From assembly GCA_000004985.1 (NCBI GenBank), contig GG738897.1: DNA of 64,000 bases. One strand, 5' to 3'. Both the position numbers and the translations under genes were made by a program. Under the pieces are notes generated by a model that saw only the letters and a list, made by a program, of their open reading frames with translations, was not told where the DNA came from and searched no databases. The stretch comes from Naegleria gruberi (lineage: Eukaryota). This document shows, piece by piece, positions 4,849 through 37,395 of the stretch. Numbering within the stretch: the stretch's first letter is position 1; each line of letters opens with the position of its first letter.

Positions 4849-6222
4849 ATGCTGCAATACCAAACCGATAATAGTACTAATGAAGAGAATGCACAACCAA
4901 TTAGAAAGCCTACTGAGGAGGTAAAACATGAACTTAAACAAGACCCATTCTTCACACTTAGACACAAAATCGTTTTGGAAGAGGGGAGTATGAGCCAATT
5001 GATAGAACAAAACAACTACTTGGCCAAAAATCCTCCCGAGCAACCAGATGACTTAAGGGATTGGATTTATACACTGTGGATTCTATCTGATATTGGCAAA
5101 GAACCAGCTGCTAATGCACACCAAGCGTTTCTCCTTTCAAAAAAGACAGAGAATGGTCAGTACATAATACCATCAGCTTGTAGGTTAATCGTTAACGCTT
5201 ATGAAGGTTGGAGTAAGGATGAAATAGTTAATGAAATTCTATGTCCACAATCAAAACCAGGAGAGTTTAAACGGGATTTATTGTTGTGCTCTGAAGCTCT
5301 TCTTCTTATTTACATCAAAAAGAGCCTCTTTCTTGATCAAGCTATCAGGTTTTGTTTCATTGCCTCACTGTTCGGCAAGAAGCGTTGCTGGCACCAACTT
5401 CAGTTTCAAATGTTTAAATCAAAGCAAGAACAATCTTATGAAGAAATAATGAAAGATTTAAGAATGCAGGTAACGTATGGTCTCTTGCTTGAAAATCATT
5501 TAGTCCAACATCAACAAAGGATACTAGAGTGTGTCCAAAATGAAAATCAAATATATTTGCCAGAAAAGAAACGAGAACGTGTTACTGAACTGATGAAAGG
5601 ATTGCAACTCGTTACAAAATTGGTAAAGCAAAAAAATAATCCAACTCTGGAACTAGAAGAGCTGATTCTAAACGGTGTTTTAGATGAGGAAAAATTCATG
5701 ATGATTATGGCTTCTAAACCTTCCTTTGCAAACTGCTTACGTTTGTTCTATGCTCTTCCTGGATTGAAATCTTCCATATCAAAAATAAATATTGAAGATG
5801 AATGGGGGGCTGAAGATGGTAAATGTGACGAAAGCAGAACTTGCCTTTCATTTTACTATGTTTCTGCCATTCATGAACGATGGGAACCTAACATATATCA
5901 ATTTGTTATGAGTGAAGCAGATATTACAATGTATGGAGGTGCTATTGAGAATTTAGTCGAGCATTTTATCAAATTAAAAGAAGAGGCATTTGCAATAGCT
6001 CTGTTAGAAGAGTGCGTAAAATTTGAGACACATTTTGTGGAAAATATCTACGAATCAGCCGAAAGAAAGTCAACAGTTTTGTACAAATGTAGAAAGTATT
6101 TGGAGTGGTGCATGAAGTTGAATAATGAAGGAGAACAAGGTTGGCTTGAAAAATTGAATGAAATTGATAAAAAAAGGGAAAACCTTGAAATCAAACATAC
6201 CTGGACTGACAGCGATTACTAA
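4849..6222 (+). CDS. Hypothetical protein, 457 aa. Single exon.
   Basis: Long uninterrupted ORF starting at ATG 4849. Composition and codon use match neighbouring genes. No domain recognised by eye. Confidence 0.45.
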   Translation: MLQYQTDNSTNEENAQPIRKPTEEVKHELKQDPFFTLRHKIVLEEGSMSQLIEQNNYLAKNPPEQPDDLRDWIYTLWILSDIGKEPAANAHQAFLLSKKTENGQYIIPSACRLIVNAYEGWSKDEIVNEILCPQSKPGEFKRDLLLCSEALLLIYIKKSLFLDQAIRFCFIASLFGKKRCWHQLQFQMFKSKQEQSYEEIMKDLRMQVTYGLLLENHLVQHQQRILECVQNENQIYLPEKKRERVTELMKGLQLVTKLVKQKNNPTLELEELILNGVLDEEKFMMIMASKPSFANCLRLFYALPGLKSSISKINIEDEWGAEDGKCDESRTCLSFYYVSAIHERWEPNIYQFVMSEADITMYGGAIENLVEHFIKLKEEAFAIALLEECVKFETHFVENIYESAERKSTVLYKCRKYLEWCMKLNNEGEQGWLEKLNEIDKKRENLEIKHTWTDSDY

Positions 6223-8852: not shown

Positions 8853-10166
8853 ATGTCGCAACCAAACTATCTCTCAAACTCTGAGAGTAATATTAGCAGT
8901 TACAACAACATTGATGACACATCTATGAGTTCACCAACTTCAATACATGCATCAACACCAGCATCATCATCAACTATTGAATTGTTGGCCACAACAATGT
9001 TTAATAAGGGACTTGATACATGCTCCAGTACCATCCTGATGTATAATGAAGATGCCAAATACGAAGATAAGAATCATGTTGATATCAGCAACGGAACATG
9101 CCAAGAAGACAAACAAAAGCAACAAAACCAAAGCATGGAAGATGGTTTCCATACGTTTAGAAAATTCAGTGTTCCATTCATTGAAGGGATTAAATTCTCA
9201 GCACAGGATGATGAAGAATGTGATTTCAAGTTGATTGGAAAGGAATACAAGTATTCATTATTTGATGGGAAGGATCATTCGGCCATGTATGAGAGATATA
9301 GACCCAGATATCCACCTGCTCTTTTCGATAAGATGATCATGCCCAAGCTGGAAGGATTCGCTTCTAAAGTTGTTGTGGATGTTGCATGTGGACCAGGTAA
9401 TGCAACCTTTGATTTGGCCAAGAGATGTGATTTTGTTATTGGAGCTGATATTTCACAAGCACAGATTGATAAAGCAGAGAGGATTTTAGGAGAACATCGA
9501 GATGAATTTCCAAATCTCATATTTGATTGTGCATGTGCTGAGAATCTTACAGATCTAGTGGAAAAGCATCGATCGACTTTGAAGAAATATCAGCATGAAG
9601 TTTCTCATTCAACATGTGATGATGAGAATAATAGTAATAATCAACAACAGGAAGAGGAGAATTATGAATTTTTTGATTTGATCACAGTTGCATGTTCATT
9701 GCATTGGTTTGATTTTGAAAAGTTCTTTGCTCAGGCAGATAAAGTCCTCAAGAAGGGAGGTTATCTGATTGCATGGACCTATTTTCTCAATACATTTTCG
9801 AATGAGAAGGCAGAGCAGATTATTACTGATTTTTATAATAGTGATGAATTGAAATCTTGTTGGACACCTAGGAAAACATTCTTGGATCACAAATATAGAA
9901 ATATTCCATACGTTCCATATGAGGATAATATGGAATTTGTTACCTTTACCTACTCTTCACAAATACCTTTGGGAGATTACATTGGGTTTTTGAAAACTTT
10001 GAGTGTAGTTCAAAAGTATGGAGACATGTATGGAATTGAAAAGAAGGATCAATTCATGTCACGTCTAACTGCTCAACTCTCTGAAGCTTTGAATATTCAC
10101 AGTGAAGAAGAACTGATGGAATTCAGTTTACCATTCGTTTTCCTCGTAACTAGAAAACACACCTAA
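8853..10166 (+). CDS. Class I SAM-dependent methyltransferase with a Ser/Asn-rich N-terminal extension.
   Basis: ATG at 8853. Motif I 'VVDVACGPGNATFDLA' (GxGxG SAM-binding) followed by 'FVIGADIS' and the post-I acidic residue. About 250-aa MTase core resembling Methyltransf_11 / trans-aconitate MTase-like enzymes. Confidence 0.65.
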   Translation: MSQPNYLSNSESNISSYNNIDDTSMSSPTSIHASTPASSSTIELLATTMFNKGLDTCSSTILMYNEDAKYEDKNHVDISNGTCQEDKQKQQNQSMEDGFHTFRKFSVPFIEGIKFSAQDDEECDFKLIGKEYKYSLFDGKDHSAMYERYRPRYPPALFDKMIMPKLEGFASKVVVDVACGPGNATFDLAKRCDFVIGADISQAQIDKAERILGEHRDEFPNLIFDCACAENLTDLVEKHRSTLKKYQHEVSHSTCDDENNSNNQQQEEENYEFFDLITVACSLHWFDFEKFFAQADKVLKKGGYLIAWTYFLNTFSNEKAEQIITDFYNSDELKSCWTPRKTFLDHKYRNIPYVPYEDNMEFVTFTYSSQIPLGDYIGFLKTLSVVQKYGDMYGIEKKDQFMSRLTAQLSEALNIHSEEELMEFSLPFVFLVTRKHT

Positions 10167-10584
10167 TTCTGAAATCTTTCTCTAACTCAATCACCATTAT
10201 CAGCTTTTTGAATACTGCAAAATCTAGGAGAATTTACAAATCATCTAGCAAGCTACGCTTAACCAATACCAAGGAATAATGATTTCATATTTCAGAATTG
10301 AAAATCATTCTCGAGCAACTTTTGTAATTCATGAATCTCACAAACTAAACACCTCAAAGGCTCTTCTTCAAAAACCAAATTGAACCAATAAATTGAATTA
10401 CAATGACAGTATCCAACTTCAATTTGCAGGATTTTGCTCGATTTTCAAAAACTCACAGCACAAAAACGAATAAATAGCAAGAAGAATCGTGCTTGCGGAG
10501 ATTCATAAATAAATAATAATTTGCCGCAAAAAAACAACACCACAACAATCACCACATCTATTAACTCCGATTGTTTAATTGATA

Positions 10585-13500
10585 ATGAAAATGGAGGAGG
10601 AACAAGATGTTTCCTCCATGTCGCAACAACAATCGAGTGGTGCAAGAATAAGTGAAGAAGAAGTTATTATAGAAGGGGAAGAAGTGATGGTTCCGATGAC
10701 GTCCATGGAAGAAGAAAACAATACTCTTCTAATACCTAATTATGAACATTTCCCTTCCGATGATGATAGTGTGGAGAGGGAAAATTCTCATCGAGACATG
10801 ATAGACAATTTTAAAGATGGAATTGATATATCATCACCTGAAGATTATGAACATTCGAGTGGGATCATTTCAAAGCTTTTCTTTTCCTTCCTTGATCCAC
10901 TGATTAAGGTTGGTTATAAGAAGGGAGGCAGGAATGATAAACCCTTCGCTGGTATTGTTCAATTAATTAGAAAATTATTAATTTATTTGAAAATAAGGAA
11001 GGAAAATCAAGAGATTGAGGATAATTTTGAAGGATTGCAACACTCTGATATTCCCAAATTACCAAAACATATTCAGACCGATAATATTTATCCAATATTT
11101 GAAAAGAGTTTTAAACATGTCTATCTTAAAAAGAGGAGATACTATTCGGAGGCTGGAAATTTATGGAGTAGTAATGGAACTCTGTTAATTAGAGTTATAG
11201 AGAAGGTATTTAGGTGGAGAGGATTTTATTCTATTGCTCTTTGGAGGATTATTTCAATTATTGCGACATATATTGCACCATTAATTTTGTACATTTTGTT
11301 GGAAGCTATTAGAACTCATTCAAGTGAGGATTCTAATATTAATGTTAATAAGAATCAAACGGAACCAATTCAGAATTCAACACTACCTTTATACTTTATG
11401 GGAATTACTTATATGGAAAATTCCTCTTCAATTGTAAATGCCACATTAATTGAGTCATATCTGCCTCTGTCTAATATTTATTTCCAATTCTCATTGCTAT
11501 GCTTCCTCTTTATTTCTAGCTCTTTCTCATTTATATTTCAACAACACTACTTTTTTGGAAGTTGTAAAGTATGGTTGGGAGTTAAAAATTCTCTACAGGC
11601 ATCAATATTTCAAAAATTAACAAGAATAACTCCCTCAGCAAGAAGCAAGTTTGAAAGTGGAGAGTTGACCAATTTATTTTCTACGGATACTAACAGATTA
11701 GCTGGTGTGATTATTGAACTACACGATCTGTGGTTAACACCAATTATGATTATTGTTGGAATGACTCTAATTATTCTCTTCTTTGGATTTAGTGCAGTGG
11801 CTGGTATTTTAGCCATGATTGCTTTTGCTCCAGTTCTAGGAGTGCTTGCTAAACTATTGACAAAAATTGAAACTGAATTGTCCAAACACAAAGACGAAAG
11901 AATTAAGGTTATGAGTGAAATTTTGAACGGTATCAGAATTGTTAAATTCTTTGTTTTTGAAGACAAAATGAAGGAACGTGTCTATGATGCCAGAGCTAAG
12001 GAATATCAAGGTTTAAGAAAAGGAGCTCTCATAAGATGTTTCCAATTACTAACTTCAGCCACCACCTCAGTTGTTGGAAGTGGTGTTACCTTCATTTCTC
12101 ATTACTATATGGGTGGTGAATTAACCATGTCGAATATGTTCACTGGACTAGTACTTTTCGAAACTTTCAGAACTCCTCTTTTCAACTATCCTAATTATCT
12201 TTCAATGGCAGTAACTGCATACGTAAGTGCTAAGAGAATTGGTAATTTCCTCTTTGCTGATGAAATTACCTCACTGCCTCACGATCCAGAAAATAAGTCA
12301 AATCTCTTCAAAGCAGAAGAAAACAAAGACCTAAATGATAGTATCTCAAGTCCGCTAGTTGATTTTGCAATCAAGTTTAAGAATGCAACCATATCATGGG
12401 GTGAGCATTCAAGCCCAATTCTCAAGAATATTAACTTGACTCTCGAAAAAGGAAAACTCTATTGTTTGATTGGTAATACTGGTTCAGGTAAAAGTAGTTT
12501 ATTTTCCTCAATTTATGGTGATACAGTTATTGTCAATGGCTCCGTCTCTGTAAATCCATACTCCAAACTTACACTCAGTGATGAAAATCCTTGGATGATC
12601 AATGGAACTGTAAGAGAAAACATAATATTCGACAAATCTCTTGACTTTGATTCTGAAAAATATGAAAAGGTTTTGGATGTATGTCAGCTTCGTTCTGACT
12701 TGGCAGGTTTCCAAAATTATGACCAATCTGAAATTGGTTACTCTGGCATTAACCTCTCCCTAGGTCAAAAACATAGAATAGGTTTGGCCAGAGCTTGTTA
12801 CTCCAACTCGGATATTATCTTGATGGATTCCTCACTAAATTCAATCGATGCTCGTCTCTGTAAGAAAATATTCAGAGATTGCATTATGGATTACCTTAAG
12901 GATAGAACTAGAATACTCATTACACACTCACTGCAATTGTTGAAAATGGCTGATGAAGTTATTGTCTTGCAGCAAGGTGAGATTGTAGCCAAGGGTCCTC
13001 TCAAAGATATTATGGATTCATATGATTTTTCCAAGTTGATTACTGAAGACGATAACAATGAAAAAAGTGAAGAATCGTCTCCAGAAATTTCTGAAGAAAA
13101 ACCCAAATCAAAGACAACTGAGAAAGGATCTGAATCTAAAGGAAAGCTTGTCCTGAATGAAGAGAGAACCACTGGTAATATTTCATGGGGTATATTCTAT
13201 GATTATTTGAAAGAATATGGCATTTCATTAATCTTGTTGTGCATTTTCCTTTCTTTTGCATCACTTGGTACTAAATTACTGAGTCAGATGTGGATTTCCT
13301 TTATGAATATGAACACATTCCAAATGTCCATTGCCAATTATGTTTGGATTTATCTAGTGATTGGATGTCTTGATTCCCTCATTCTATTTATCAGAAGTGG
13401 TTTCTACTCGTATGGTTCTCTTAAAAGCTCACTCAAACTCCACAACAAAATGTTGGAAGGTGTTTTAAGGGCTCCAATTTTATTCTTCGATCAAAATCCT

Positions 13501-23776: not shown

Positions 23777-25564
23777 ATGAAACAGATGAAGAGATCCATT
23801 GTACAATTAGCCAAGGCTCAAACTAAGTCTACCACTGCTGCTGCCTTCTCCAACACCTTTGTTAATCAACAACGTACCAAGAAGGTTGATGTTAAGGTCA
23901 AGAAACTTTTCATTGGTGGTGAATTTGTTGAAGGAAAGGAAGGAAAGAAATTCTCTGTATACAATCCAGCAACTGAAGAAGAAATTTGTCAAATTTCCGA
24001 AGCCACTGCTGCTGATGTTGATGATGCAGTTCGTGTTGCTAGAAATACCTTTGAAAACGTCTGGAGAAATTATGCACCATCCCAACGTGTTCGTCTCATG
24101 AATAAGTGGGCTGATTTGATTGAAAGAGATGCTGATTATATTGCTGATTTAGAATGTATTGATAATGGTAAGCCACGTGATATGGTCAGAAATGTTGACA
24201 TTTACTTGGTTCTCCAATGTATTAGATACTATGCTGGTTGGGCTGATAAGATTAACGGTAAGACCATTCCAGTTGACTCTGACTTCTTTGCCTACACTCA
24301 AAGAGAACCAGTTGGTGTTTGTGGTCAAATTGTTCCATGGAATTTCCCATTGGTTTGTTTCTTTTTAATTATTTTCTAATTATTTTAATTTTTTAATTTA
24401 ATTTTTTTTTTAAATATTTTAATATTTTAATTAAATTTATCAAGTTGATGGCTGTAAGTAGAATAGTAAAGAATTATGAAATAATTAACACAAATTCTAT
24501 AGACTTGGAAGTGGGCACCATGTTTGGCAACTGGTAACGTTTCCATTTTGAAGACTGCTGAACAAACTCCATTGTCTGCATTGTACGTTGCTAAATTGGC
24601 TCATGAAGCTGGATTCCCACCAGGAGTCATTCAAGTTTTGAGTGGTTTTGGTGAAACTGTTGGTAATGCATTGACTCATCACATGGATGTTGATAAGATT
24701 TCATTCACTGGTAGCACTGAAGTTGGTAAAAAGATTCTTGGAGCTTCTTCCAAGACTAATTTGAAGAGAGTTACTCTTGAACTCGGTGGTAAATCAGCAT
24801 TGATTGTCATGGGTGATGTTAAGGATCGTGCCACTCTTGAAAAGGCTGTCAATATTGCCAATCAAGGTACCTTCTTCAATCAAGGTCAAGTTTGTACTTG
24901 TTCATCTCGTGTCTTTGTTGCCTCCAATATTTATGAAGATTTCTTGAAGATTTCTAAGGAACTTGCTGAAAAGAGAGTTGTTGGTAACCCATTCGATTCC
25001 AAGACTGAACAAGGTGCTCAAGTCAGTGAAGAACAATTCAACAAGATTATGAGCTACATTGAATATGGTAAGAATAATACTAGACTTGTCACTGGTGGTG
25101 AACGTGCCCATGCCAAGGGTTACTTTGTTAAGCCAACTGTCTTTGCTGATGTTGAAGATACTCATAAGATTGCTCAAGAAGAAATCTTTGGACCAGTTAT
25201 GAGTGTTTTGAAGTTTGATCATGATAATGTTGAAGATGCTATCAGAAGAGCCAACAAGTCTGAATATGGTTTGGCTGCTGGTGTCATTACTCATGATCTC
25301 AACCAAGCTCACAGAGTTGTAAGTTTATTATTTTTAAATTTTTTCTAATTTTCACTAATTATCATTCATTTACAGACATCGGGTCTTAGAGCCGGAACTA
25401 TTTGGGTAAACACATGGAATGCTTTCTTCAGTAATATTGAATTCGGTGGTTACAAGATGTCTGGTCAAGGTAGAGATTTGGGTGAACATGCTTTGGATGA
25501 ATATACTGAAAATAAGTCTGTCATTACTCATATCCCAGGTTTGAAACGTCCATACAAGTTTTAA
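23777..25564 (+). CDS. Aldehyde dehydrogenase (ALDH1/2 family) with predicted mitochondrial presequence. Three exons: 23777-24352, 24503-25318, 25376-25564.
   Basis: ATG at 23777. Basic/hydroxylated N-terminal presequence. Conserved 'VGVCGQIVPWNFPL' | 'TWKWAPCLATGN'. Catalytic 'ELGGKS', 'GQVCTCSSR' (active-site Cys) and 'EEIFGPV'. Introns GTTTGT...AG (150 nt) and GTAAGT...AG (57 nt). Confidence 0.85.
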
Positions 25565-25694: not shown

Positions 25695-28600
25695 ATGCGA
25701 ACACAAATACTCTGTATTTTTATTATTAATGCCATTCTCCTTGCCATCACAACACAAACAACTGTCCATTCACAAAATCCTCCTGAAAATCCTTCATGTA
25801 CTTCACAATTTCTTGTGAATAATGAAATTTCAAAAGCTATGGAATATTTACAGTTCAATATGTTCATGATGATGACTTCGGAATTTGATGATCATCAACA
25901 GGATTTTTCATCGTCACAAGCGAGAAATGTGAAGAATTGCAGTTTGGCAAATCCGTGTGAAAATTTAACACAAATTCTCTCAGTACTGAACAAGACACTT
26001 GTGGAAGATAATTTTAACTTTTATAATCGGTCAACTGAGAGGCTGGTAGTTTTGAATATTAATTTATTGAATGATATTTTGGATACAACTGAACATTTTA
26101 TTGAAACTCCAATAATTTCTGGTTTGAATTATATTTTCAAATTTAAGAGCGTATCAGATTCGGATAGAAATTTGATTCAATTGAAATGGAAGGGATCTTA
26201 TGATCGATCCTATGTATTGACAAGACCAGATATTAAGTGGTTTTACTTTGAGAATGTGACACTTAATTTATTTAGATTGAATAATACGGATGTTGCAAAT
26301 CTTGGTTTTTGTAATTGCTTAATTGTGGATACGTGGTTGAATTTTGTAACGAATAGAGATTTTTATATTGAAAAGAGTCAATTGATTAGATCAATTATTT
26401 ATGCAACTACAAATTTGTGGTTCTATGACAGATCAGAAACCATTAAATATGGAGAATATTATGTGACAGGTTTGACAGCTATTTATAATAATAGTGAAAT
26501 TCATGAAACACGACTCAGATGGACAGTCAGCAGTGTTACAAATCTAATAATTGAAAATTCATTATTTGAAGATTTTTTGGTGGAAATGACCTTCAAACAA
26601 GTGACAAATGTTCTCATTCGAAACTCCACCTTTATTCGTGATTATTTGGATTATAAGGAAGAGTCAGTGAATGCACTTCAAGGAAATTCATTTCGTGTTA
26701 TTAATTGCACCTTTCAACATGCTTATTCATTCCTTTTTGTGAGATCTTATATTTTTGTTTCAATTGATAGCTCAATTGTTTCTAATAATCAGCTGATGAA
26801 GGAGAATTTAATTAGTGTTTTCTATGGGATTATTGCAATTCAGAGTTGTATCACTGTTATGGTTTCCAATTCTCAATTTTCAAACAATGAAGGTTATGAA
26901 AGAGCTTCTGCACTTTACTTGTCAGATGTCAATGTATTCCATGTGAGAAATTGCCAGTTCACTAACAATTCTGCCTCCAGCATCTTCTCAAATAGTTATC
27001 CTAATAGAATGTTTGATAATGATAAGTCTTATTACTGGTATACTGTTTCCAATTGCAAATTCGAAGGAAATACCTGTAACAAGGAAGGTTGTGGAATTTA
27101 CATTTCTGACTCAATTGACCTGACAATTCAAAACAATATTTTCCTGAATAACACAGCTCAATATGGTGGAGCAGCTCTCTTTATCAAAATTGGAGCCAGA
27201 GCTGTAATTTTAAATAATTTATTTATTGGAAATAAGGTACTTTACAATAATTTATTACGACAACCTGCTAGTACTTTCTATTATGGAGGCGGAGGAGCTG
27301 TTTCTATAATTACTACTCAATTGGGACTTTCAGAAAGCAAACTATTGGCAAATACTTTCATTAATAACGAAGCTCTCTATGGTGGTTCATTATTTTTTGT
27401 TAGGGAATCTTTGGTGGAAATTTCCAATTCAACATTTATTGGAAATAAGGCAAAGAGAGGAGGAGCCATGTTTTACTATTCACCAAGTGTAGAACAAACT
27501 GAAATATTTGATAATGTGTTTAAGGAAAATGTTGCAGAAATTGGAAATGATTTATTGACAAGTGTCGTTGCTTTGGATTGGGATAATAGTACTGTACATC
27601 ATGTCAAACCGGGTGATGCTATTTCATTGGATGTAAAGACATTCGAATTGGGTGGATTACTTATTCCAACAAATACTGAAAATTTCACAGTCTTTACTGA
27701 TAACCCAAGTGTTTATTTGGATTTTTTACAGAACGAAACCTCATTTACAATATCCATGTATTTAATGGGTGATGTTACACCAAATTCCTATGGAAATTTC
27801 ACACTATTCCTTGATAGCAATCCAGCAATTACCTTTTTTCATTATTCCATCAATTCATGTGGGGAAGGAAATGAATTGAGAGTAATTGGTAAGAATCAGA
27901 TGGCCGTTTTGAAATGTGTGCCATCTCCTGCTAGCCTACTACCTCTAATTCTATCAGTTTCCATTCCAGTTGGTGTTTTTATTGCCATAGTGAGTGTTTT
28001 TATTGGAATAATTTTGGGCATGGTTGGAATTCCAAAAATTAATAATATAAAACGACGATTGAATCTATTGCAGGAAAAGGAGAGTGCCGAGCAGAGTGTT
28101 GAGCAGAAGATTATTGATAAGAAGGTGGTATTCAATATGAACGATGAAGGTGACTTTAAGGAGCCATTACTGAAAAACTATGAACTGGAAGATCCAATAT
28201 TTCGTTTTATCATTTCTCCAAAGGATATTGACATTGTAAAGAAGGTAGCAGAAGGAGGGTATGTAGTTGTGTGTTTATTGTAACAATTCACTAACAATTT
28301 GATAAGAAATGGAGTGGTTTACAAGGGAACGTGGAAAGGAATTGAAGTTGCCATTAAGACTATTAAGGCAAAGAATGAAAGTAGAGACGATTTTGAGAAT
28401 GAAATTTCACTTCTCGCCTCTATTAGAAATCCACATATTTTGAATTTTTATGGAGTTTGTGTGACGGAGAATGAAACATTTATGATTACAGAGTTTTTGG
28501 AGAATGGAAGTTTGGAGGGGATTATTTATTTGAGTAGGATTGGTCAATTCAAACTCTCATTCCATGAAAAATTGAGAATTTTATATGAAGTAGCTATTGG

Positions 28601-29244
28601 AATGGATTATTTACATTCGTTAACACCAAAAATTGTTCACAGAGATTTGGTAAGTTTCGAATTTTGAAAATCTGCCTCAAATTTACATTTTCTATTAGAA
28701 ACCTGGGAATATTCTATTGGATAAGGATATGCATTGCAAAGTATGTGATTTTGGTCTTTCCAGAACTGTAAATCAAAATACCAATCACTCAATTACAAGA
28801 AATGTTGGTACATTATTCTACCTTAGCCCAGAAATGTTTGAAATTGATCAAACCAAAGTTGATCCTCACAATGTTTCTAAAATAGATACCTATAGTTTTG
28901 GAATAATCATGTGGGAACTTTTCTTTGAGCTAGCTCCATTCACTGAAAATAGGAAAACTGTTCGAATGTTACATGAAGATGAGAATTCTAACAATTTGAA
29001 CACAATTAACATGTTACATTTGGTATCAAAGGGAAAGAGACCTTCCATTCCATTCGAATCTATAGAGGAAGTTAGAGAATGGTTACTTATTTATGAGGAG
29101 GATAAGAAATTCAAAGGAGCTAATATTGTTTTGGAATATTTTGAATTGACTAAACAGTGTTGGAGTGAACAGCCAAGTACTAGACCAGAATTTAATGTGA
29201 TTGTCAAAAAACTTTACAATTTCATGGAAAGAATCAAGCAGTAA
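25695..29244 (+). CDS. Receptor-like protein kinase. Signal peptide, then about 750-aa ectodomain of Pmp-type parallel beta-helix repeats, a single TM, and a cytoplasmic TKL-like kinase. Three exons: 25695-28258, 28307-28649, 28699-29244.
   Basis: ATG at 25695. Signal peptide 'ILCIFIINAILLAITTQT'. Repeated 'NNxAxxGGA' motifs ('NNTAQYGGAALFI', 'NNEALYGGSLFFV', 'GNKAKRGGAMFYY'). TM 'LLPLILSVSIPVGVFIAIVSVFIGIILGMV'. Kinase subdomains: G-loop 'VAEGG|NGVVYKG', 'VAIKTIK', 'HRDL|KPGNILL', 'CDFGLSR', 'SFGIIMWELF'. Two phase-consistent introns of 48 and 49 nt: GTATGT...AG and GTAAGT...AG. Confidence 0.65.
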
Positions 29245-29405
29245 ATTACTTTGAATCCACAACTTGCTGAGTGAACAATTAGTTTTGTAAACTATACGAG
29301 CTCAATAGTGAATGAATGAACTTGAATTCTAAAAATAAACTTCTTCATCTTTAAATTTTACGTTAAAACTCAAACTTGAAAAGAAAACAAAAAAAAATAA
29401 CACAA

Positions 29406-29933
29406 ATGTCGACCACCACCGCAACTACTTCTGACCCACCTGCTATTATAAACAACGCCACCCCTAGCCAATCTCCAACTCTTGAAATTACAATGACATT
29501 CAGAGCAGAGCCAAAGAAACGATCGATAAAACTTGAAGATCCTCAAAAAACATTTCACATGATGATTGTGTGGGATAAGACGAAACCAGAAAATCATCAA
29601 TTGGAATATACTACCATTATGAATGATTTGAAAAAGTTACTCTCTGAAAATAATAATACCATCTATTTCATTCCTAGAATTGCTTGTACCAATTCGACGT
29701 ATGGTGAGGTCGATGATTGGTTGACTGATTATATACTAAAGCTCAGAAATGAAAAGTCGTGGATTCATTGTGAAAAGGATCTTGATAGCAGAGTAGAGGG
29801 ACAAGTTGGTGATTATAATTTGTTTGCACACATTTCGAGGAGAATGATTGAGGAGGGAAGTCCATTGAGGAATTCACTGTCTAATGTTGCTGGACAAGTA
29901 ATCAAAATTAATATTGTAAACTATAAGAAGTAA
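29406..29933 (+). CDS. Hypothetical small protein, about 175 aa.
   Basis: ORF with ATG at 29406; the track starts at TTG 29376. No recognised domain. Confidence 0.35.
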   Translation: MSTTTATTSDPPAIINNATPSQSPTLEITMTFRAEPKKRSIKLEDPQKTFHMMIVWDKTKPENHQLEYTTIMNDLKKLLSENNNTIYFIPRIACTNSTYGEVDDWLTDYILKLRNEKSWIHCEKDLDSRVEGQVGDYNLFAHISRRMIEEGSPLRNSLSNVAGQVIKINIVNYKK

Positions 29934-30398
29934 ATTAAGGAGAAGGAAAAAGAATCCTTTTCTTCATGTAGCACTTTGTAAAAGATAACACAGTTTAAAC
30001 TTTACAAAAATATTTACAGTGCACTGTAGAATAAAAAAATCTTCAAAGATTTCACTGAAAATATGCCGAAATGCAAATGTTTAGCTTGTATACCCAACCA
30101 ATGGGAATATCTGAAACAGAGACGCTGTTTACAAAAGCGAGTTATGCAACAAGAATTGTTTCCAATTCTGTGGACACATTAGATTAGAAATAGTTCCTTA
30201 AAGTATTATCACTACACTGGCAATGAAACATTTACTTCTCAAATATACTCCTTAAAGTCTTTTTGGCGTTTTACATTCCGGTTGTAAAACGAAACGGACT
30301 ACCATTTAAGGAATCGAATAGTTTTCTAGTGGGACCTTCATAAAAACATTTAAACGCTTAAAATCTTGCAAAAGCGAAAAGAAACTGTTAAGAAAAAT

Positions 30399-31703
30399 AT
30401 GAAACTTTGTATCTTGCTTGTTGCTGCTCTTTGTTTAGTTTTTGGTTTCGTCCACTGTCAATGGAGTCAAAAGAATTACGACCAATTCCAATCCATGCAT
30501 GTTCCTTTGCATGCAGATAATGCAAATTGGTTCAACCAATTCCAAGCTCCAAACTTTCTCTACACCCAAACCATTTTAGATTCCCTCATTGTTGATGTAA
30601 AGAATAATCAAGCTCTCGTTGCTTTACAATATCACACAGAGTTGGCTTTATTGAAAATCAACATGTTGAATGGTGCTTATCAATATGTGAATGTTTCTGC
30701 AGGTGAAATCCATGAAAACTTACATTATGTCTCCTCAGTAATTGATAGTAACAACTACTATTACATCTTGTTGGATAATGAGAAGGATAATAAGGCATAT
30801 CTATTTAAGGTTAATGTTCTTGGAGTTGGTAAGAGTCAAGTGTCTTTCTTACCAATGGGAGGGGTAACTGCTATGGTTTACTCTGAAATGTTTGATTCCA
30901 TTGTTATTAGCTCACACGATGGAGTTATTTCATTGGATTGTAAAACTCTTTCCCAAAATTGGAAATTGCAGTTGAAAGACCAATCAAAGATTCACTTGTT
31001 GACACAAGAACTCAACACTGAGTACATTTACATTTCCTTCATGGACAGTTTGGTCAGTAGAATCCATGTTGAGAATGGCAAAATCTCTGGACAAATCAAA
31101 CTTCATAACGGTACCATTGCCTCTATCAGTAAGTTCAAGAACGATCCAAATGGATTCCTTGTTGCAACCATCACTAATGATGTGGAGATGACTGATTACA
31201 TTGCCTTCTTCAATATTGATAAGCAAGTCTCTACTCAAAACAAATTGCTCGTTCAAAATATCAGAGGATCTTTCCATCAAGCTTATTGTAATCCTGCTAT
31301 TGGTTTCTTCAATAATACTAAACAAGGTGGAGAATACAATGCTGTTGTTTCATGTGGATTGTTGCAAAGATCACCAATTTATACCACCAACTTTATATTG
31401 AGCTTGAAATTCACTGTAAACCAATTCAATGCTATTGACATGCATCAAATGTGGGAAAAGAAAGTTGATGAGGAGAACTTGCAATTTGTTGCTTACAATC
31501 AAGATTTGAATCAAATTGTAACCACTGATACTGAATATTTACTTGTTGATAGCGTTACTGGTAGAGTTCTCAAGACATTTAAATCTAACATCTTGAATAG
31601 TCCAAATGGTGTTAATGGATTCAAATATTTGACTGATAACAATGGAAAGATTTATGCCATTGGTGTTGACCCAAGTCAATTAATTTCGTTTGAATCTTTG
31701 TAA
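30399..31703 (+). CDS. Secreted hypothetical protein with N-terminal signal peptide.
   Basis: ATG at 30399. Signal peptide 'MKLCILLVAALCLVFGFVHC'. 434-aa ORF rich in beta-strand-like segments. No catalytic motif recognised. Confidence 0.45.
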   Translation: MKLCILLVAALCLVFGFVHCQWSQKNYDQFQSMHVPLHADNANWFNQFQAPNFLYTQTILDSLIVDVKNNQALVALQYHTELALLKINMLNGAYQYVNVSAGEIHENLHYVSSVIDSNNYYYILLDNEKDNKAYLFKVNVLGVGKSQVSFLPMGGVTAMVYSEMFDSIVISSHDGVISLDCKTLSQNWKLQLKDQSKIHLLTQELNTEYIYISFMDSLVSRIHVENGKISGQIKLHNGTIASISKFKNDPNGFLVATITNDVEMTDYIAFFNIDKQVSTQNKLLVQNIRGSFHQAYCNPAIGFFNNTKQGGEYNAVVSCGLLQRSPIYTTNFILSLKFTVNQFNAIDMHQMWEKKVDEENLQFVAYNQDLNQIVTTDTEYLLVDSVTGRVLKTFKSNILNSPNGVNGFKYLTDNNGKIYAIGVDPSQLISFESL

Positions 31704-34821: not shown

Positions 34822-37395
34822 ATGCTGAATAATAAATCCATTCAAGATGAAAAGGGGTTACAAGCTGCCTTAGATAAAAAGAGTCTTCATCAACAAACTA
34901 CTCTTTTCCCTCCGTCATGTTCATCAGAGTCTCTGGATCAATCACCAAATATCCTTCCCTATATTGCCAGGATTTTCGATAATGAAACTATTCAAGAACA
35001 CAAAAGTTATTTAAAATCGAAAGAGGATGTCTATAATCAATTTCTGGCTCCTTATACCGAATCAACAACATCATCAACCCATGCGTCACCTATTTTAGCA
35101 TATAATCAGTTTGAGGATGCTCCGATCTTTGAGGAACCATTACCACCAGAGAACAAGGAAGTCAAAATGCCTCTCCTATTAAAATCCCAGAAAGAGAATG
35201 TCTTTAATTCATCTTTCAAATTTGCAAGTGAGGAAGAAGAAGCAAAGTACTTGGATATGGTGGAAGTAATGACTGAGTATACAGACAGTGATTTCCTCAA
35301 TTCAACATCCTCATCCATTTCCTCAATACGATCTATCTCTTCCATTAAATCCTTGCCAACCAACAATGAAAAAGGAACTATGAAATTTGATGACCCTAAA
35401 AGACCTCTTCTCCAAAAACACAACCATCAGCAACAGCTTATAACAAAAAAGACAGAAAAGAAAAAGAATAATGATACAAGACCTCCTTTCCTTCCTACCT
35501 CAAAGAATGTGACAACTGATGTTCTACCACCTCCACCACCTCCTCCAAAAAAGCTTTACAGCAATATTTCCTCAAAGATCTCTCAAATTTTCAAAAATAC
35601 TCAAAAGAAGTCAAAAAATGATTCTCCCTCCAACTCTTCAGAAAGTGAAGAGTCTCTGCTATTAGTACCTTCAAAAACAAGATCTGTTTCCCCTTCTTCC
35701 TTAAATACCTCCCCTCCAGCAGCACCTGCTAATACAGCGACTAACTTGAAAAAAGTTGTAACCAACGTGAAAAACACCAACTCTGAAAAAACTCAAACGA
35801 CTCACGCTTATCTTAAGAGAAAGAGCATTTCGTTTGTGATATCATCAGCAACTACTTCCAAATCCACAAAGCAATCAACCCCACCAGAGAGATTAACCAA
35901 ACTTAAGGCTGGTCCACGAAAGCAATTACAGAAGAGTGATACCTCTCCAACATTGCTTAAAGAACCTCCAGCATCTTCGCTCAGATCTTCATCTTCCCTC
36001 ATTAGTTCATTCGTAGCTGAATTCAATGAAAGAAAAAAGAAAGTGGAGTTTGTTGCTGGCTCAAACTCTATTGCGACACTGCATGCCATTGAAAGAAAAA
36101 TCAAAGAAAAGTTCCAGATTGATCGAAAGCAAAAGATTGGTTTGAGCTACTTTGACAGGGAGTATAAACAGTGGCTAGAGGTTGATAACATAAAGGAACT
36201 TCAAGGTGCTAAGGTTAAAGTAAGCATTACAGAGGAAAAGAGCGAACCATCTTCAATATCTAGATCAGATTCATCAGCAGGTACTGACAGTCCAAAATCT
36301 CCATTCCGAGACACGTTTGAAATTTCTAAAGGTTGGATTATTATCAAGACATTAGGTGTTGGCAGCTTCGGTAATGTTATGCTTTGTTTTGATTCGAATG
36401 CTAATGAAATGATGGCTGTCAAGAAGATCCTTTACTCAGCAGAGAGTCAAGTCAAGCAAAAGATTGAAAAGGAAACAACTATTATGAAGAGCTTGAATCA
36501 TGAAAATATTGTTCGTTTTAAAGGAGTTGAATTTTCAAATGACTTTTGCTTCATTTTGATGGAGTTCCTTAGTGGTGGTTCCTTGAAACAAGTTCTCAAG
36601 AGAATGAACAAAGGATTATCAGAAGCTGTAGTCCAGTTATACTTGAAACAAATTTTGGTTGCACTGAAATACCTTCATGAGGATAGGGACGAGCCAATCT
36701 ATCACAGAGATCTCAAAAGTGAGAACATCTTACTCAAGAATGCAGAAATCATCAAATTGGCTGACTTTGGAGAAGCCAAATTAATTTGTAAAAATAGCCA
36801 CTTAGATAAATCAAGACAAGATGGATCCCTCACCAAGACTAAAGCAATGACGGGAACAATACCTTTCCTTAGTATTGAACAATTGAGAGGAGAAACTTGT
36901 TATAAGAGAAGCCATATGCCAGACATTTGGAGTTTGGGAATGACCATTCTCGAAATGTTAATAGGAAGAAATATTTGGTTCTCTTTATATCCAGCCAATC
37001 TTACCACAGAATATCAATATGTAGAATTTATGATTAACAATACGCATTTAATTTATGAAAACATTCCGTCTTACATATCTCCTCAATTGAGAGATTTAAT
37101 AACGAAATGCCTTTCTCTGTAAGTAATTTTCTGTCAATTTATCCTAACCAAATACAGAACCCCTGAACAGAGGCCTAAAGCTTCTGAACTACTCCGCCAT
37201 GAATTCTTTGAGCTCGACTTTTCAAAGAATATCAAGAATGACATGTGTGATATTTATAAGCAATTAGACACGATAAGAGAAGAATATCACAAGTTACACC
37301 TTGCCAGATTGCCAACTTACAAGTCTCTAAACAAGGAGAATGAAAACATTGTAAACATGAGCTCTCTATCTTATTCACAGTCATTTTTTGAATAA
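34822..37395 (+). CDS. Ser/Thr protein kinase (STE/MAP3K-like) with Ser-rich N-terminal region and a PB1/ubiquitin-like segment. Two exons: 34822-37118 and 37158-37395.
   Basis: ATG at 34822. Kinase motifs 'LGVGSFGNV', 'MAVKKI', 'HRDLKSENILL', 'ADFGEAK', 'DIWSLGMTILEML'. Intron GTAAGT (37119) ... cAG (37157), 39 nt. It restores the conserved C-terminal '...TPEQRPKASELLRHEFF'. Confidence 0.7.

What the first reader, a model, noticed from the sequence alone, without database searches (positions are those of the whole stretch)
25695..29244. Receptor-like kinase with an ectodomain of Pmp-type beta-helix repeats
Splicing two short introns (48 and 49 nt) joins the 862-aa 'ORF' to the two downstream kinase ORFs. 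The ectodomain ORF carries a signal peptide and many NNxAxxGGA-type parallel beta-helix (polymorphic-membrane-protein-like) repeats before its TM helix. The G-loop of the kinase is completed only across the first junction (VAEGG|NGVVYKG). That is strong internal evidence that the fusion is real. A Pmp-repeat beta-helix sensor wired directly to a TKL-type kinase is an unusual receptor architecture. Pmp repeats are classically bacterial or parasite surface adhesins.
Basis: partly seen in the sequence, partly recalled or inferred. Interest (0 to 1): 0.7.

Follow-up and report, generated by a model that had tools for sequence, protein, structure and literature searches.

The report
Naegleria beta-helix receptor kinase gene
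This is a real three-exon gene of the amoeba Naegleria gruberi for a membrane receptor that joins a bacterial-adhesin-like beta-helix outside the cell to a protein kinase inside; the gene model is already public, but it belongs to a sizeable amoeba-specific receptor family that I could not find described in the papers I could search.

Summary
Removing two canonical introns (28259-28306, 48 nt; 28650-28698, 49 nt) joins the three ORFs into a 1150-aa protein. It is identical to the public N. gruberi model NAEGRDRAFT_72446 (XP_002672468.1, D2VTW0).

Predicted layout:
- signal peptide
- about 500-residue right-handed parallel beta-helix
- all-beta stalk with two invariant cysteines
- one long transmembrane plus juxtamembrane helix
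- intact RD-type, TKL-like Ser/Thr kinase

The fusion has independent support. In N. lovaniensis one uninterrupted exon covers helix end, TM, juxtamembrane and G-loop, and the intron after HRDL sits at the same position.

"Pmp-type" holds at family level. This protein misses Pfam's Chlam_PMP cut-off (16.5 vs 20.6 bits) but passes Beta_helix. 27 of 37 aligned relatives match Chlam_PMP at E<=0.01, and the nearest non-amoeba relatives are Chlam_PMP proteins.

The gene is one of at least about 35 diverged members in N. gruberi, N. lovaniensis, N. fowleri and Willaertia magna. All 20 whose database names I looked up are labelled hypothetical, predicted or uncharacterized. Function is inferred, not shown: a surface or glycan-sensing receptor kinase.

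It is a new ectodomain variant of a known kind of receptor. Interest is moderate.

The parts
25695..28258 (+). Exon 1 (codons 1-854 plus 2 nt): signal peptide, whole ectodomain, TM helix, juxtamembrane segment and the first half of the kinase glycine-rich loop
   Evidence: ORF list; splice reconstruction; identical to P0001
25695..25772 (+). Predicted signal peptide (aa 1-26, MRTQILCIFIINAILLAITTQTTVHS|Q)
   Evidence: Hydrophobic N-terminal segment seen in the sequence and modelled as helix 2-22. Cleavage site judged by eye only (small residues at -3/-1); no predictor was run.
26037..27554 (+). Right-handed parallel beta-helix (about aa 115-620), preceded by a cap helix (aa 91-104) after the NCSLANPC motif
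26868..27590 (+). Block of Pmp-like coils (aa 392-632): eight FxxN motifs, each followed where present by GGAA, GGAV, GGSL or GGAM, mostly 26-28 aa apart
   Evidence: Motif listing and shuffle test; Chlam_PMP sub-threshold at 16.5 bits, E 0.01; family consensus FxxNxAxxxGGAI
27597..27923 (+). Membrane-proximal all-beta stalk (aa 635-743) with the family-invariant cysteines C722 and C741
   Evidence: Invariant columns in the 37-member alignment; strands 635-743 at block pLDDT about 76-90; no Pfam match
27936..28130 (+). TM helix (about aa 748-779) continuing into a conserved juxtamembrane helix (aa 780-812, RRLxxLxxKExAEQxxExK)
   Evidence: Highest hydropathy in the protein; single helix 745-812 in the model; conserved L789, L792, A798, E799, E803
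28259..28306 (+). Intron 1, 48 nt, GTATGT...CTAAC...AG, phase 2, with an in-frame TAA
   Evidence: Absent in the N. lovaniensis relative, where the ORF is continuous.
28307..28649 (+). Exon 2: kinase N-lobe and the start of the C-lobe up to HRDL
28650..28698 (+). Intron 2, 49 nt, GTAAGT...TAG, phase 0, directly after HRDL
   Evidence: An intron at the identical position in N. lovaniensis.
28699..29244 (+). Exon 3: KPGN, DFG, activation segment, rest of the C-lobe, stop codon
28230..29226 (+). Protein kinase domain (aa 846-1145, interrupted by both introns) with K872, E887, HRDLKPGN (D968, N973), DFG (D986) and GTLFYLSPE
   Evidence: PK_Tyr_Ser-Thr 2.5e-50 and Pkinase 6e-47; catalytic residues invariant or nearly so across the family; best PDB relatives are TKL kinases

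Best explanation
The locus is the N. gruberi gene NAEGRDRAFT_72446. It encodes a type I single-pass receptor Ser/Thr kinase.

Shown by the analyses:
- three exons and two short canonical introns
- a long right-handed parallel beta-helix with degenerate Pmp-type (FxxN / GGA) coils
- a cysteine-bearing beta stalk
- one TM helix continuous with a conserved juxtamembrane helix
- a short disordered linker
- a complete RD-type kinase of TKL character
- membership of a family of at least about 35 diverged genes found only in Naegleria spp. and Willaertia among the sequences examined. Within it, ectodomains are about 20% identical and kinases about 42%.

Inferred, not shown:
- The beta-helix binds an extracellular ligand. 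This is most plausibly a polysaccharide or a particulate surface such as bacterial prey, substrate or another cell. Pmp-type helices are adhesins and most other members of this fold bind glycans.
- Ligand-driven clustering or dimerisation is relayed through the stalk and the TM-juxtamembrane helix.
- The kinases then phosphorylate each other's activation segments (DFGLSRTVNQNTNHSITRNVGT) and switch on downstream signalling, for example for feeding, adhesion or motility.
- The rapid divergence of ectodomains on a conserved kinase chassis fits a repertoire of receptors with different specificities.
For: Gene structure. Exact identity to the public model. Introns match the style of the neighbouring gene.

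Independent support for the fusion:
- N. lovaniensis exon L001 10717-12480 is one ORF from the beta-helix through TM and G-loop to HRDL, and it has an intron at the same HRDL|K position.
- N. fowleri FDP41_001441 (1077 aa) has the same full layout.
- About 33 further 50%-identity cluster representatives match the family profile end to end.

Pmp relationship: the profile search outside the amoebae returns almost only PF02415-bearing proteins, with the best at 1.7e-46. Chlam_PMP matches 27 of 37 family members. The family consensus is FxxNxAxxxGGAI.

Kinase competence: K872, E887, HRD, N973 and DFG are conserved. TKL similarity.

Divergence pattern.
Against: - No transcript, protein or functional data were available, so expression, surface localisation, ligand and kinase activity are all untested.
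- This member's Chlam_PMP score is below Pfam's cut-off and it has one strict GGA[ILV] motif.
- The first glycine of the G-loop is Ala (AEGGNG).
- The closest solved beta-helix structures are enzymes rather than receptors. A catalytic ectodomain is therefore not excluded.
- TKL placement rests on similarity ranking, not on a kinome phylogeny.
Confidence: 0.75

Rival explanations
1. The ectodomain is a membrane-tethered carbohydrate-active enzyme (glycosidase, lyase or epimerase) rather than a sensor. The kinase regulates it or reports on its activity.
Against: Sequence identity to those enzymes is 8-15%. No enzyme family of this fold reaches threshold in Pfam: Pect-lyase and Chondroitinase_B score only E 0.08-0.17. 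All sequence-level relatives are Pmp-repeat proteins, which are described as adhesins (PMC10715098, PMC6701047). Ectodomain residues are poorly conserved across the family, at about 20% identity, with no invariant acidic residues in the helix.
Confidence: 0.1
2. The main product is a kinase-less, TM-anchored Pmp-like adhesin of 862 aa, made when intron 1 with its in-frame TAA is retained. This would be analogous to trichomonad Pmp proteins. The kinase-bearing form would be minor or conditional.
For: Intron 1 holds an in-frame stop 25 nt into the intron, so retention gives exactly the 862-aa ORF. Trichomonad Pmp-like proteins are FxxN/GGA repeats plus one TM domain plus a short tail.
Against: Intron 1 has strong canonical signals (GTATGT, CTAAC branch, AG) like the neighbouring introns. 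The N. lovaniensis relative has no intron there and must make the fused protein. The downstream kinase exons have no start of their own and keep all catalytic residues. There are no expression data either way.
Confidence: 0.08
3. The ectodomain ORF and the kinase ORFs are two separate genes, or the fusion is an annotation artefact.
For: Public models of relatives are sometimes split. N. fowleri FDP41_009158 and N. lovaniensis C9374_008798 are separated from their upstream ectodomain ORFs.
Against: The kinase ORFs lack an ATG, beta-strand 1 and the first half of the G-loop unless spliced. Both junctions restore universally conserved kinase motifs. The ORF is continuous in N. lovaniensis. There is an intact full-length copy in N. 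fowleri. About 35 proteins share the same end-to-end layout. The split models are explained by a one-base frame change and by mis-called introns.
Confidence: 0.02
4. The kinase is a pseudokinase, and the protein acts only as an adhesion or scaffolding molecule.
For: The G-loop begins with Ala instead of Gly (AEGGNG), and there is a roughly 40-residue insert in the C-lobe.
Against: VAIK Lys, alphaC Glu, HRDLKPGN, DFG and the SPE motif are all present and conserved across 37 members. Several paralogues share the Ala at this position (P0002 AEGGMG, P0009 ASGANG, P0019 AEGASG), while others such as P0010 and P0017 keep Gly (GEG).
Confidence: 0.05

Closest known systems
Single-pass receptor Ser/Thr kinases of the TKL group (plant RLK/Pelle such as CERK1, LYK3 and Pto-type kinases; also the cytoplasmic TKLs CTR1, TAK1 and RIPK2/3)
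   Same: The kinase domain is most similar to these among solved structures, with E 3e-36 to about 1e-28. It has an RD-type catalytic loop HRDLKxxN. The overall logic is the same as plant RLKs: signal peptide, variable ectodomain, one TM, juxtamembrane segment, kinase. As in plant RLKs, it is a lineage-specific expansion with fast-evolving ectodomains.
   Different: The ectodomain is a Pmp-type parallel beta-helix. To my knowledge this is not one of the described plant or animal receptor-kinase ectodomain classes (LRR, LysM, lectin, malectin, WAK/EGF, DUF26 and others). The host is a heterolobosean amoeba. Descent from the plant RLK/Pelle clade was not tested.
Chlamydial polymorphic membrane proteins (Pmp) and other bacterial Chlam_PMP (PF02415) repeat proteins
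   Same: Repeating FxxN and GGA(I/L/V)-type motifs form the coils of a right-handed beta-helix (definition in PMC10715098 and PMC11166332). The family profile finds such proteins as the closest non-amoeba relatives. 27 of 37 family members match PF02415.
   Different: There is no autotransporter beta-barrel and no Pmp middle domain; none was detected in Pfam. Anchoring is by a eukaryotic-type TM helix. There is a cytoplasmic kinase. This particular protein is below the PF02415 cut-off.
Trichomonad Pmp-like surface proteins (for example T. vaginalis TvPmp)
   Same: These are eukaryotic proteins with N-terminal FxxN/GGA repeats, in which the bacterial C-terminal modules are replaced by a single TM domain (PMC6701047).
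   Different: The trichomonad proteins have only a short cytoplasmic tail with endocytic motifs and a conserved ATPITK motif. No kinase is mentioned for them. The Naegleria family carries a full kinase and a conserved Cys-containing stalk.
Entamoeba histolytica transmembrane kinases (TMKs)
   Same: They are a large amoeba-specific family of single-pass receptor kinases. Members are implicated in phagocytosis of cells and bacteria (PMC8616307). This is the nearest functional analogy for a phagotrophic amoeba.
   Different: From my own knowledge, Entamoeba TMK ectodomains are cysteine-rich CXXC repeats related to the Gal/GalNAc lectin, not beta-helices. They are in a different eukaryotic supergroup. 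No sequence relationship of the ectodomains was seen here.

Membership tests
Eukaryotic protein kinase superfamily (active kinase) | Pkinase/PK_Tyr_Ser-Thr profile match plus VAIK Lys, alphaC Glu, HRD Asp, catalytic Asn and DFG Asp | tested here: met
   PF07714 2.5e-50 and PF00069 6e-47. K872, E887, D968, N973 and D986 are present and conserved in the family. Catalytic activity itself was not tested.
TKL (tyrosine-kinase-like) group | Closest similarity to TKL families (MLK, RAF, RIPK, IRAK/RLK) with a Ser/Thr-type catalytic loop HRDLKxxN | tested here: met
   Best PDB matches are CTR1, TAK1, RIPK3, TNNI3K, Pto, CERK1 and RIPK2, with some Tyr kinases interleaved. The loop is HRDLKPGN. Placement is by similarity ranking only; no kinome phylogeny was run.
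Conventional protein tyrosine kinases / receptor tyrosine kinases | Catalytic loop HRDLAARN or HRDLRAAN and a P+1 loop of the PxxWxAPE type | tested here: not met
   The sequence has HRDLKPGN and GTLFYLSPE.
Plant RLK/Pelle (IRAK) clade | Monophyly with plant RLK and animal IRAK/Pelle kinases in a kinase-domain phylogeny | not tested
   Plant RLK fragments appear among sequence hits at 33-41% identity over about half the query. They rank below Naegleria paralogues. No tree was built.
Right-handed parallel beta-helix (pectin-lyase-like fold, PbH1 repeats) | Profile match to Beta_helix / para_beta_helix repeats and a three-dimensional right-handed beta-helix | tested here: met
Chlam_PMP repeat family (PF02415) | Repeated FxxN and GGA(I/L/V) motifs scoring above the Pfam gathering threshold | tested here: inconclusive
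   This protein scores 16.5 bits against cut-off 20.6, E 0.01 on the isolated segment. It has 8 FxxN in the helix but only 1 strict GGA[ILV], plus GGAA, GGSL and GGAM. At family level, 27 of 37 members match at E<=0.01, best 2.1e-16. Non-amoeba profile hits carry PF02415.
Chlamydial Pmp autotransporters (type V secretion) | C-terminal autotransporter beta-barrel and Pmp middle domain | tested here: not met
   No Autotransporter or Pmp-middle match at E<=1 in Pfam. The C-terminal half is a TM helix plus a kinase.
Trichomonad Pmp-like proteins | FxxN/GGA repeats, then a conserved ATPITK motif, one TM domain and a short tail with endocytic motifs | tested here: not met
   The repeats and single TM domain are present. 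The ATPITK motif is absent from the protein sequence. The tail is a 370-residue juxtamembrane-plus-kinase module. The definition comes from PMC6701047.
Vahlkampfiid beta-helix receptor-kinase family (defined here) | N-terminal C-x5-PC cap, FxxN/GGA coils, stalk with two invariant Cys, TM, LxxLxxKExAE juxtamembrane helix, HRDLKPGN kinase | tested here: met
   All features are present in this protein and in the 37-member alignment. End-to-end profile matches are shown.

The most novel reading that the evidence does not exclude
Heterolobosean amoebae (Naegleria, including the pathogen N. fowleri, and Willaertia) built their own repertoire of surface or pattern-recognition receptors. They did so by capturing a bacterial-type Pmp adhesin beta-helix, possibly through horizontal transfer, and wiring it to a TKL kinase. 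The ectodomains then diversified to recognise different bacterial prey, substrates or host glycans. This would be an independent, convergent invention of the plant-RLK / Entamoeba-TMK strategy with a sensor fold not used by any characterised receptor kinase.
Probability: 0.25. Interest if true: 0.65.

Novelty: new variant of a known kind. Interest (0 to 1): 0.4.

Why it matters
Receptor kinases are the main way plants and animals read their surroundings. Their origins and diversity in free-living protists are poorly charted; the one cross-kingdom survey of transmembrane kinases that I read does not mention Naegleria or beta-helix ectodomains.

This locus shows that a whole group of amoebae uses a parallel beta-helix of the bacterial Pmp-adhesin type as the sensor module of a sizeable receptor-kinase family. 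The family is present in the brain-eating N. fowleri. There, surface receptors that couple contact to signalling are candidate players in feeding on host tissue, and they are exposed to drugs and antibodies.

The work also flags several split or truncated public gene models that hide the family.

The limits are real. The gene model itself is old. The domain hits can be recovered by any routine Pfam scan. Nothing is known about ligand or pathway.

Tried and rejected
The exhaustive profile search was needed for the family survey.
- The afdb50 fold library was not available, so I could not look for the architecture in other eukaryotes by structure.
- The look-up of encoding contigs had no record for the N. 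gruberi paralogue P0017, so its truncated N-terminus could not be repaired.
- Seven literature searches and four of the five papers read in part gave no description of a Naegleria beta-helix or Pmp receptor kinase. The fifth paper described trichomonad Pmp proteins, which have no kinase. The N. gruberi genome paper itself was not found in the library, so its supplement was not checked.
- I checked whether the second kinase in the window (34822-37119) is a paralogue. It is not: about 30% identity over 140 residues, a best Pfam match to Pkinase, and no beta-helix.
- I checked for synteny between the N. gruberi and N. lovaniensis loci. The flanking genes differ, so orthology rests on best similarity only.
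- The origin of the helix was not resolved. The two best non-amoeba relatives lie on metagenomic contigs of unclear origin, one with sparse prokaryote-style gene calls that suggests a eukaryote. No horizontal-transfer claim is made.
Full report
**Source and gene structure.** The window is AT-rich (about 34% G+C) and carries short spliceosomal introns. The 862-aa ORF at 25695-28283 and the two downstream ORFs (28299-28667 and 28717-29244) are on the + strand, the first two in one reading frame and the third in another. Reading the DNA shows two introns:
- GTATGT...CTAAC...AG at 28259-28306 (48 nt, phase 2, with an in-frame TAA)
- GTAAGT...TAG at 28650-28698 (49 nt, phase 0)

Removing them gives a 3453-nt CDS and a 1150-aa protein. 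The first junction rebuilds the glycine-rich loop (VAEGG|NGVVYKG). The second rebuilds the catalytic loop (HRDL|KPGN). The neighbouring aldehyde dehydrogenase gene has introns of the same kind (49 nt and 57 nt, both starting GTAAGT), so the two introns are typical for this genome.

**Identity.** The spliced protein is identical, residue for residue, to a public protein: "predicted protein [Naegleria gruberi]", EFC39724.1 / XP_002672468.1 / UniProt D2VTW0 / NAEGRDRAFT_72446.

**Independent evidence for the fusion.**
- The closest relative is N. lovaniensis C9374_008798 (P0002; 31% identity in the single-protein search and 33% in the profile search over the pre-kinase region, about 45% over well-aligned columns).
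- In its locus, one uninterrupted exon (L001 10717-12480) encodes the end of the beta-helix, the stalk, the TM helix, the juxtamembrane region and the kinase up to HRDL. Junction 1 is simply continuous coding sequence there.
- An intron follows HRDL at exactly the same position as intron 2 here. It is followed by a 22-nt micro-exon and a second intron.
- N. fowleri FDP41_001441 (1077 aa) has the whole layout in one model.
- The kinase ORFs in the window have no ATG and lack the first beta-strand unless spliced.
- The "two separate genes" reading is therefore very unlikely.

**Domains.**
- Pfam finds PK_Tyr_Ser-Thr (2.5e-50), Pkinase (6e-47), Beta_helix (51.7 bits against cut-off 25.9) and NosD (27.9 against 23.6). 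It finds no Chlam_PMP at E<=1 on the full protein.
- NCBIfam adds the parallel beta-helix repeat TIGR03804.
- On the isolated repeat block, Chlam_PMP reaches 16.5 bits, E 0.01. This is below the 20.6-bit cut-off.
- The helix region has 8 FxxN motifs (3.1 expected; 30 of 5000 shuffles reach 8). It has 4 GG[AS][ILVMA] motifs (0.06 expected; 0 of 5000 shuffles). Spacing is mostly 26-28 residues.
- Only one motif is a strict GGA[ILV].

**Structure.**
- An AlphaFold model of the ectodomain, built with a shallow alignment, was confident only for residues 260-620.
- A full-length model built on the 37-member family alignment reached mean pLDDT 80.2. It shows:
  - a signal-peptide helix (2-22)
  - a cap helix (91-104) after the NCSLANPC motif
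  - a continuous strand ladder from about 115 to 620
  - an all-beta stalk (635-743)
  - one long helix (745-812) covering the TM and juxtamembrane segments
  - a disordered linker (801-835 below pLDDT 50)
  - a normal bilobal kinase

**The kinase.**
- K872 (VAIK), E887, HRDLKPGN, DFG and GTLFYLSPE are present, and they are invariant or nearly so across relatives.
- The catalytic loop is of the Ser/Thr type, not the tyrosine-kinase type.
- The best solved relatives are CTR1, TAK1, RIPK3, TNNI3K, Pto, CERK1 and RIPK2. All are TKL-group kinases, with some Tyr kinases interleaved.
- "TKL-type" is supported by similarity. I built no phylogeny.

**A family, not a singleton.**
- A search with the TM-to-kinase part found Naegleria proteins sharing the stalk cysteines, the TM helix, the conserved juxtamembrane motif (LxxLxxKExAEQxIExK) and the kinase.
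- An exhaustive HMMER search with that family profile against 1.84 billion cluster representatives found about 33 more proteins matching the profile end to end. They are 1000-1490 aa long, each with FxxN/GGA motifs, one TM segment and an HRD kinase about 200-270 residues after it.
- I looked up the database names of 20 of these. They are N. gruberi (NAEGRDRAFT_74710, _69813, _61536, _80827; plus _72446 here and the truncated _64576), N. lovaniensis (at least 13 counting P0002 and P0019), N. fowleri (FDP41_007123, _010393, _001441) and Willaertia magna (three). All are labelled hypothetical, predicted or uncharacterized.
- In the 37-member alignment the consensus coils read FxxNxAxxxGGAI. C722 and C741 are invariant. 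An N-terminal C-x5-PC cap motif is conserved.
- Pfam on all 37: kinase in 37 of 37, Chlam_PMP in 27 of 37 at E<=0.01 (best 2.1e-16), Beta_helix in 7 of 37. Two members carry EGF / Teneurin-NHL ectodomains instead.
- Outside the amoebae, the ectodomain profile hits almost only PF02415-bearing proteins, with the best at 1.7e-46.
- "Pmp-type beta-helix" is therefore justified for the family. The window's gene is one of its more degenerate members.
- Among the other 113 of the 150 top hits, none combined at least four GGA[ILV] motifs with a kinase. They were multi-kinase concatenates or giant kinase-less Pmp-repeat proteins.
- Ectodomains are far more diverged than kinases: median 20% versus 42% identity to this protein.

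**Context.** The flanking genes are unrelated housekeeping-type genes: aldehyde dehydrogenase upstream; downstream an unknown 185-aa ORF, a secreted-looking 445-aa protein, a glycosyltransferase and an unrelated kinase. No paralogue lies in the window.

**Mechanism.**
- Shown: the architecture of a type I receptor kinase with all catalytic residues.
- Inferred: the beta-helix binds an extracellular ligand. The stalk and the TM-juxtamembrane helix transmit clustering. The RD kinases activate each other by activation-segment phosphorylation.
- A glycan or cell-surface ligand is the most plausible, for two reasons. Pmp-type helices are adhesins (PMC10715098, PMC11166332, PMC6701047). Most members of the fold bind polysaccharides.
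- The nearest functional analogy is the Entamoeba TMK family, whose members take part in phagocytosis (PMC8616307).
- Rivals are a tethered carbohydrate-active enzyme, a kinase-less isoform made by retention of intron 1, separate genes, and a pseudokinase. They are listed with their evidence, and none is favoured.

**Comparison with the known.** The kinase module and the overall logic are those of single-pass TKL receptor kinases. The sensor module is that of Chlam_PMP repeat proteins, without the autotransporter parts. Trichomonad Pmp-like proteins show the same replacement of bacterial C-terminal modules by a TM helix, but they have only a short tail and no kinase. In the literature available to me I found no description of a Pmp or beta-helix receptor kinase, and none of this Naegleria family. 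The N. gruberi genome paper and its supplement could not be checked.

**Verdict.** The gene model is already public, and its kinase and Beta_helix domains can be recovered by a routine Pfam scan. What appears to be undescribed is the recognition of a vahlkampfiid-wide, diversified family of Pmp-type beta-helix receptor kinases, hidden in part by split gene models. I rate it a new variant of a known kind, of moderate interest (0.4). The ligand, the pathway and the origin of the helix are all open.

Noticed in passing
L001 9225-10716 (N. lovaniensis PYSW02000036.1): The public model C9374_008798 is truncated. The separately called 245-aa 'gene' at 9225-9962 has a signal-like N-terminus and aligns to the N-terminal ectodomain of the N. 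gruberi protein. A frame-shifted stretch at 9835-9972 aligns to residues 172-215. The annotated 137-nt 'intron' at 10580-10716 aligns in frame to coding residues of the N. gruberi protein.
   Followed up: partly
L002 4067-7800 (N. fowleri VFQX01000067.1): FDP41_009158 (kinase half) is split from the upstream 629-aa gene, which has a signal peptide and a beta-helix with a faint Chlam_PMP hit. The split is a one-base frame change near 5940-5960. A second copy, FDP41_001441 (1077 aa), is intact. The frameshift is therefore probably an assembly error or an allelic defect.
   Followed up: partly
L001 12481-12605: In N. lovaniensis the intron after HRDL is followed by a 22-nt micro-exon (KPGNLLL) and then a second intron. 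N. gruberi has a single 49-nt intron at this site.
   Followed up: no
P0004 (L004 6001-10275) and P0108 (Flechtneria rotunda transcript): Pmp-repeat ectodomains are fused to multi-pass membrane modules instead of a kinase. P0004 has a signal peptide, 15 GGA[ILV] motifs and 5 hydrophobic segments at its C-terminal end. It lies on a 1.35-Mb metagenomic contig with sparse gene calls, which may be eukaryotic. P0108, from a green alga, has 8 hydrophobic segments.
   Followed up: no
Alignment A4 (two members, probably P0206 and P0247): Two proteins that match the family's kinase part of the profile, each with one TM segment about 200 residues before the HRD motif, carry EGF / Teneurin-NHL type ectodomains instead of the beta-helix. 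This points to ectodomain swapping on a similar TM-kinase module.
   Followed up: no
window 34822-37119 (+): A second protein kinase gene: a 766-aa ORF with Pkinase 1.3e-50 at residues 507-765 and no beta-helix. It is only about 30% identical to the receptor kinase over 140 residues, so it is not a paralogue of the family.
   Followed up: partly
window 55390-57699 (-): A 770-aa ORF combining a BTB_2 (potassium-channel tetramerisation type) domain with a long run of pentapeptide repeats, a KCTD9-like arrangement.
   Followed up: no
window 30366-31700 (+) and 29376-29930 (+): Immediately downstream of the receptor kinase there is a 445-aa ORF with a hydrophobic N-terminus and only a weak WD40-like Pfam hit, and a 185-aa ORF with no Pfam match. 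The function of both is unknown.
   Followed up: no
window 23777-25563 (+): An aldehyde dehydrogenase gene lies directly upstream, split by short introns (24454-24502 and 25319-25375, and probably one more near 24380-24450). It served here as an internal control for intron style.
   Followed up: partly
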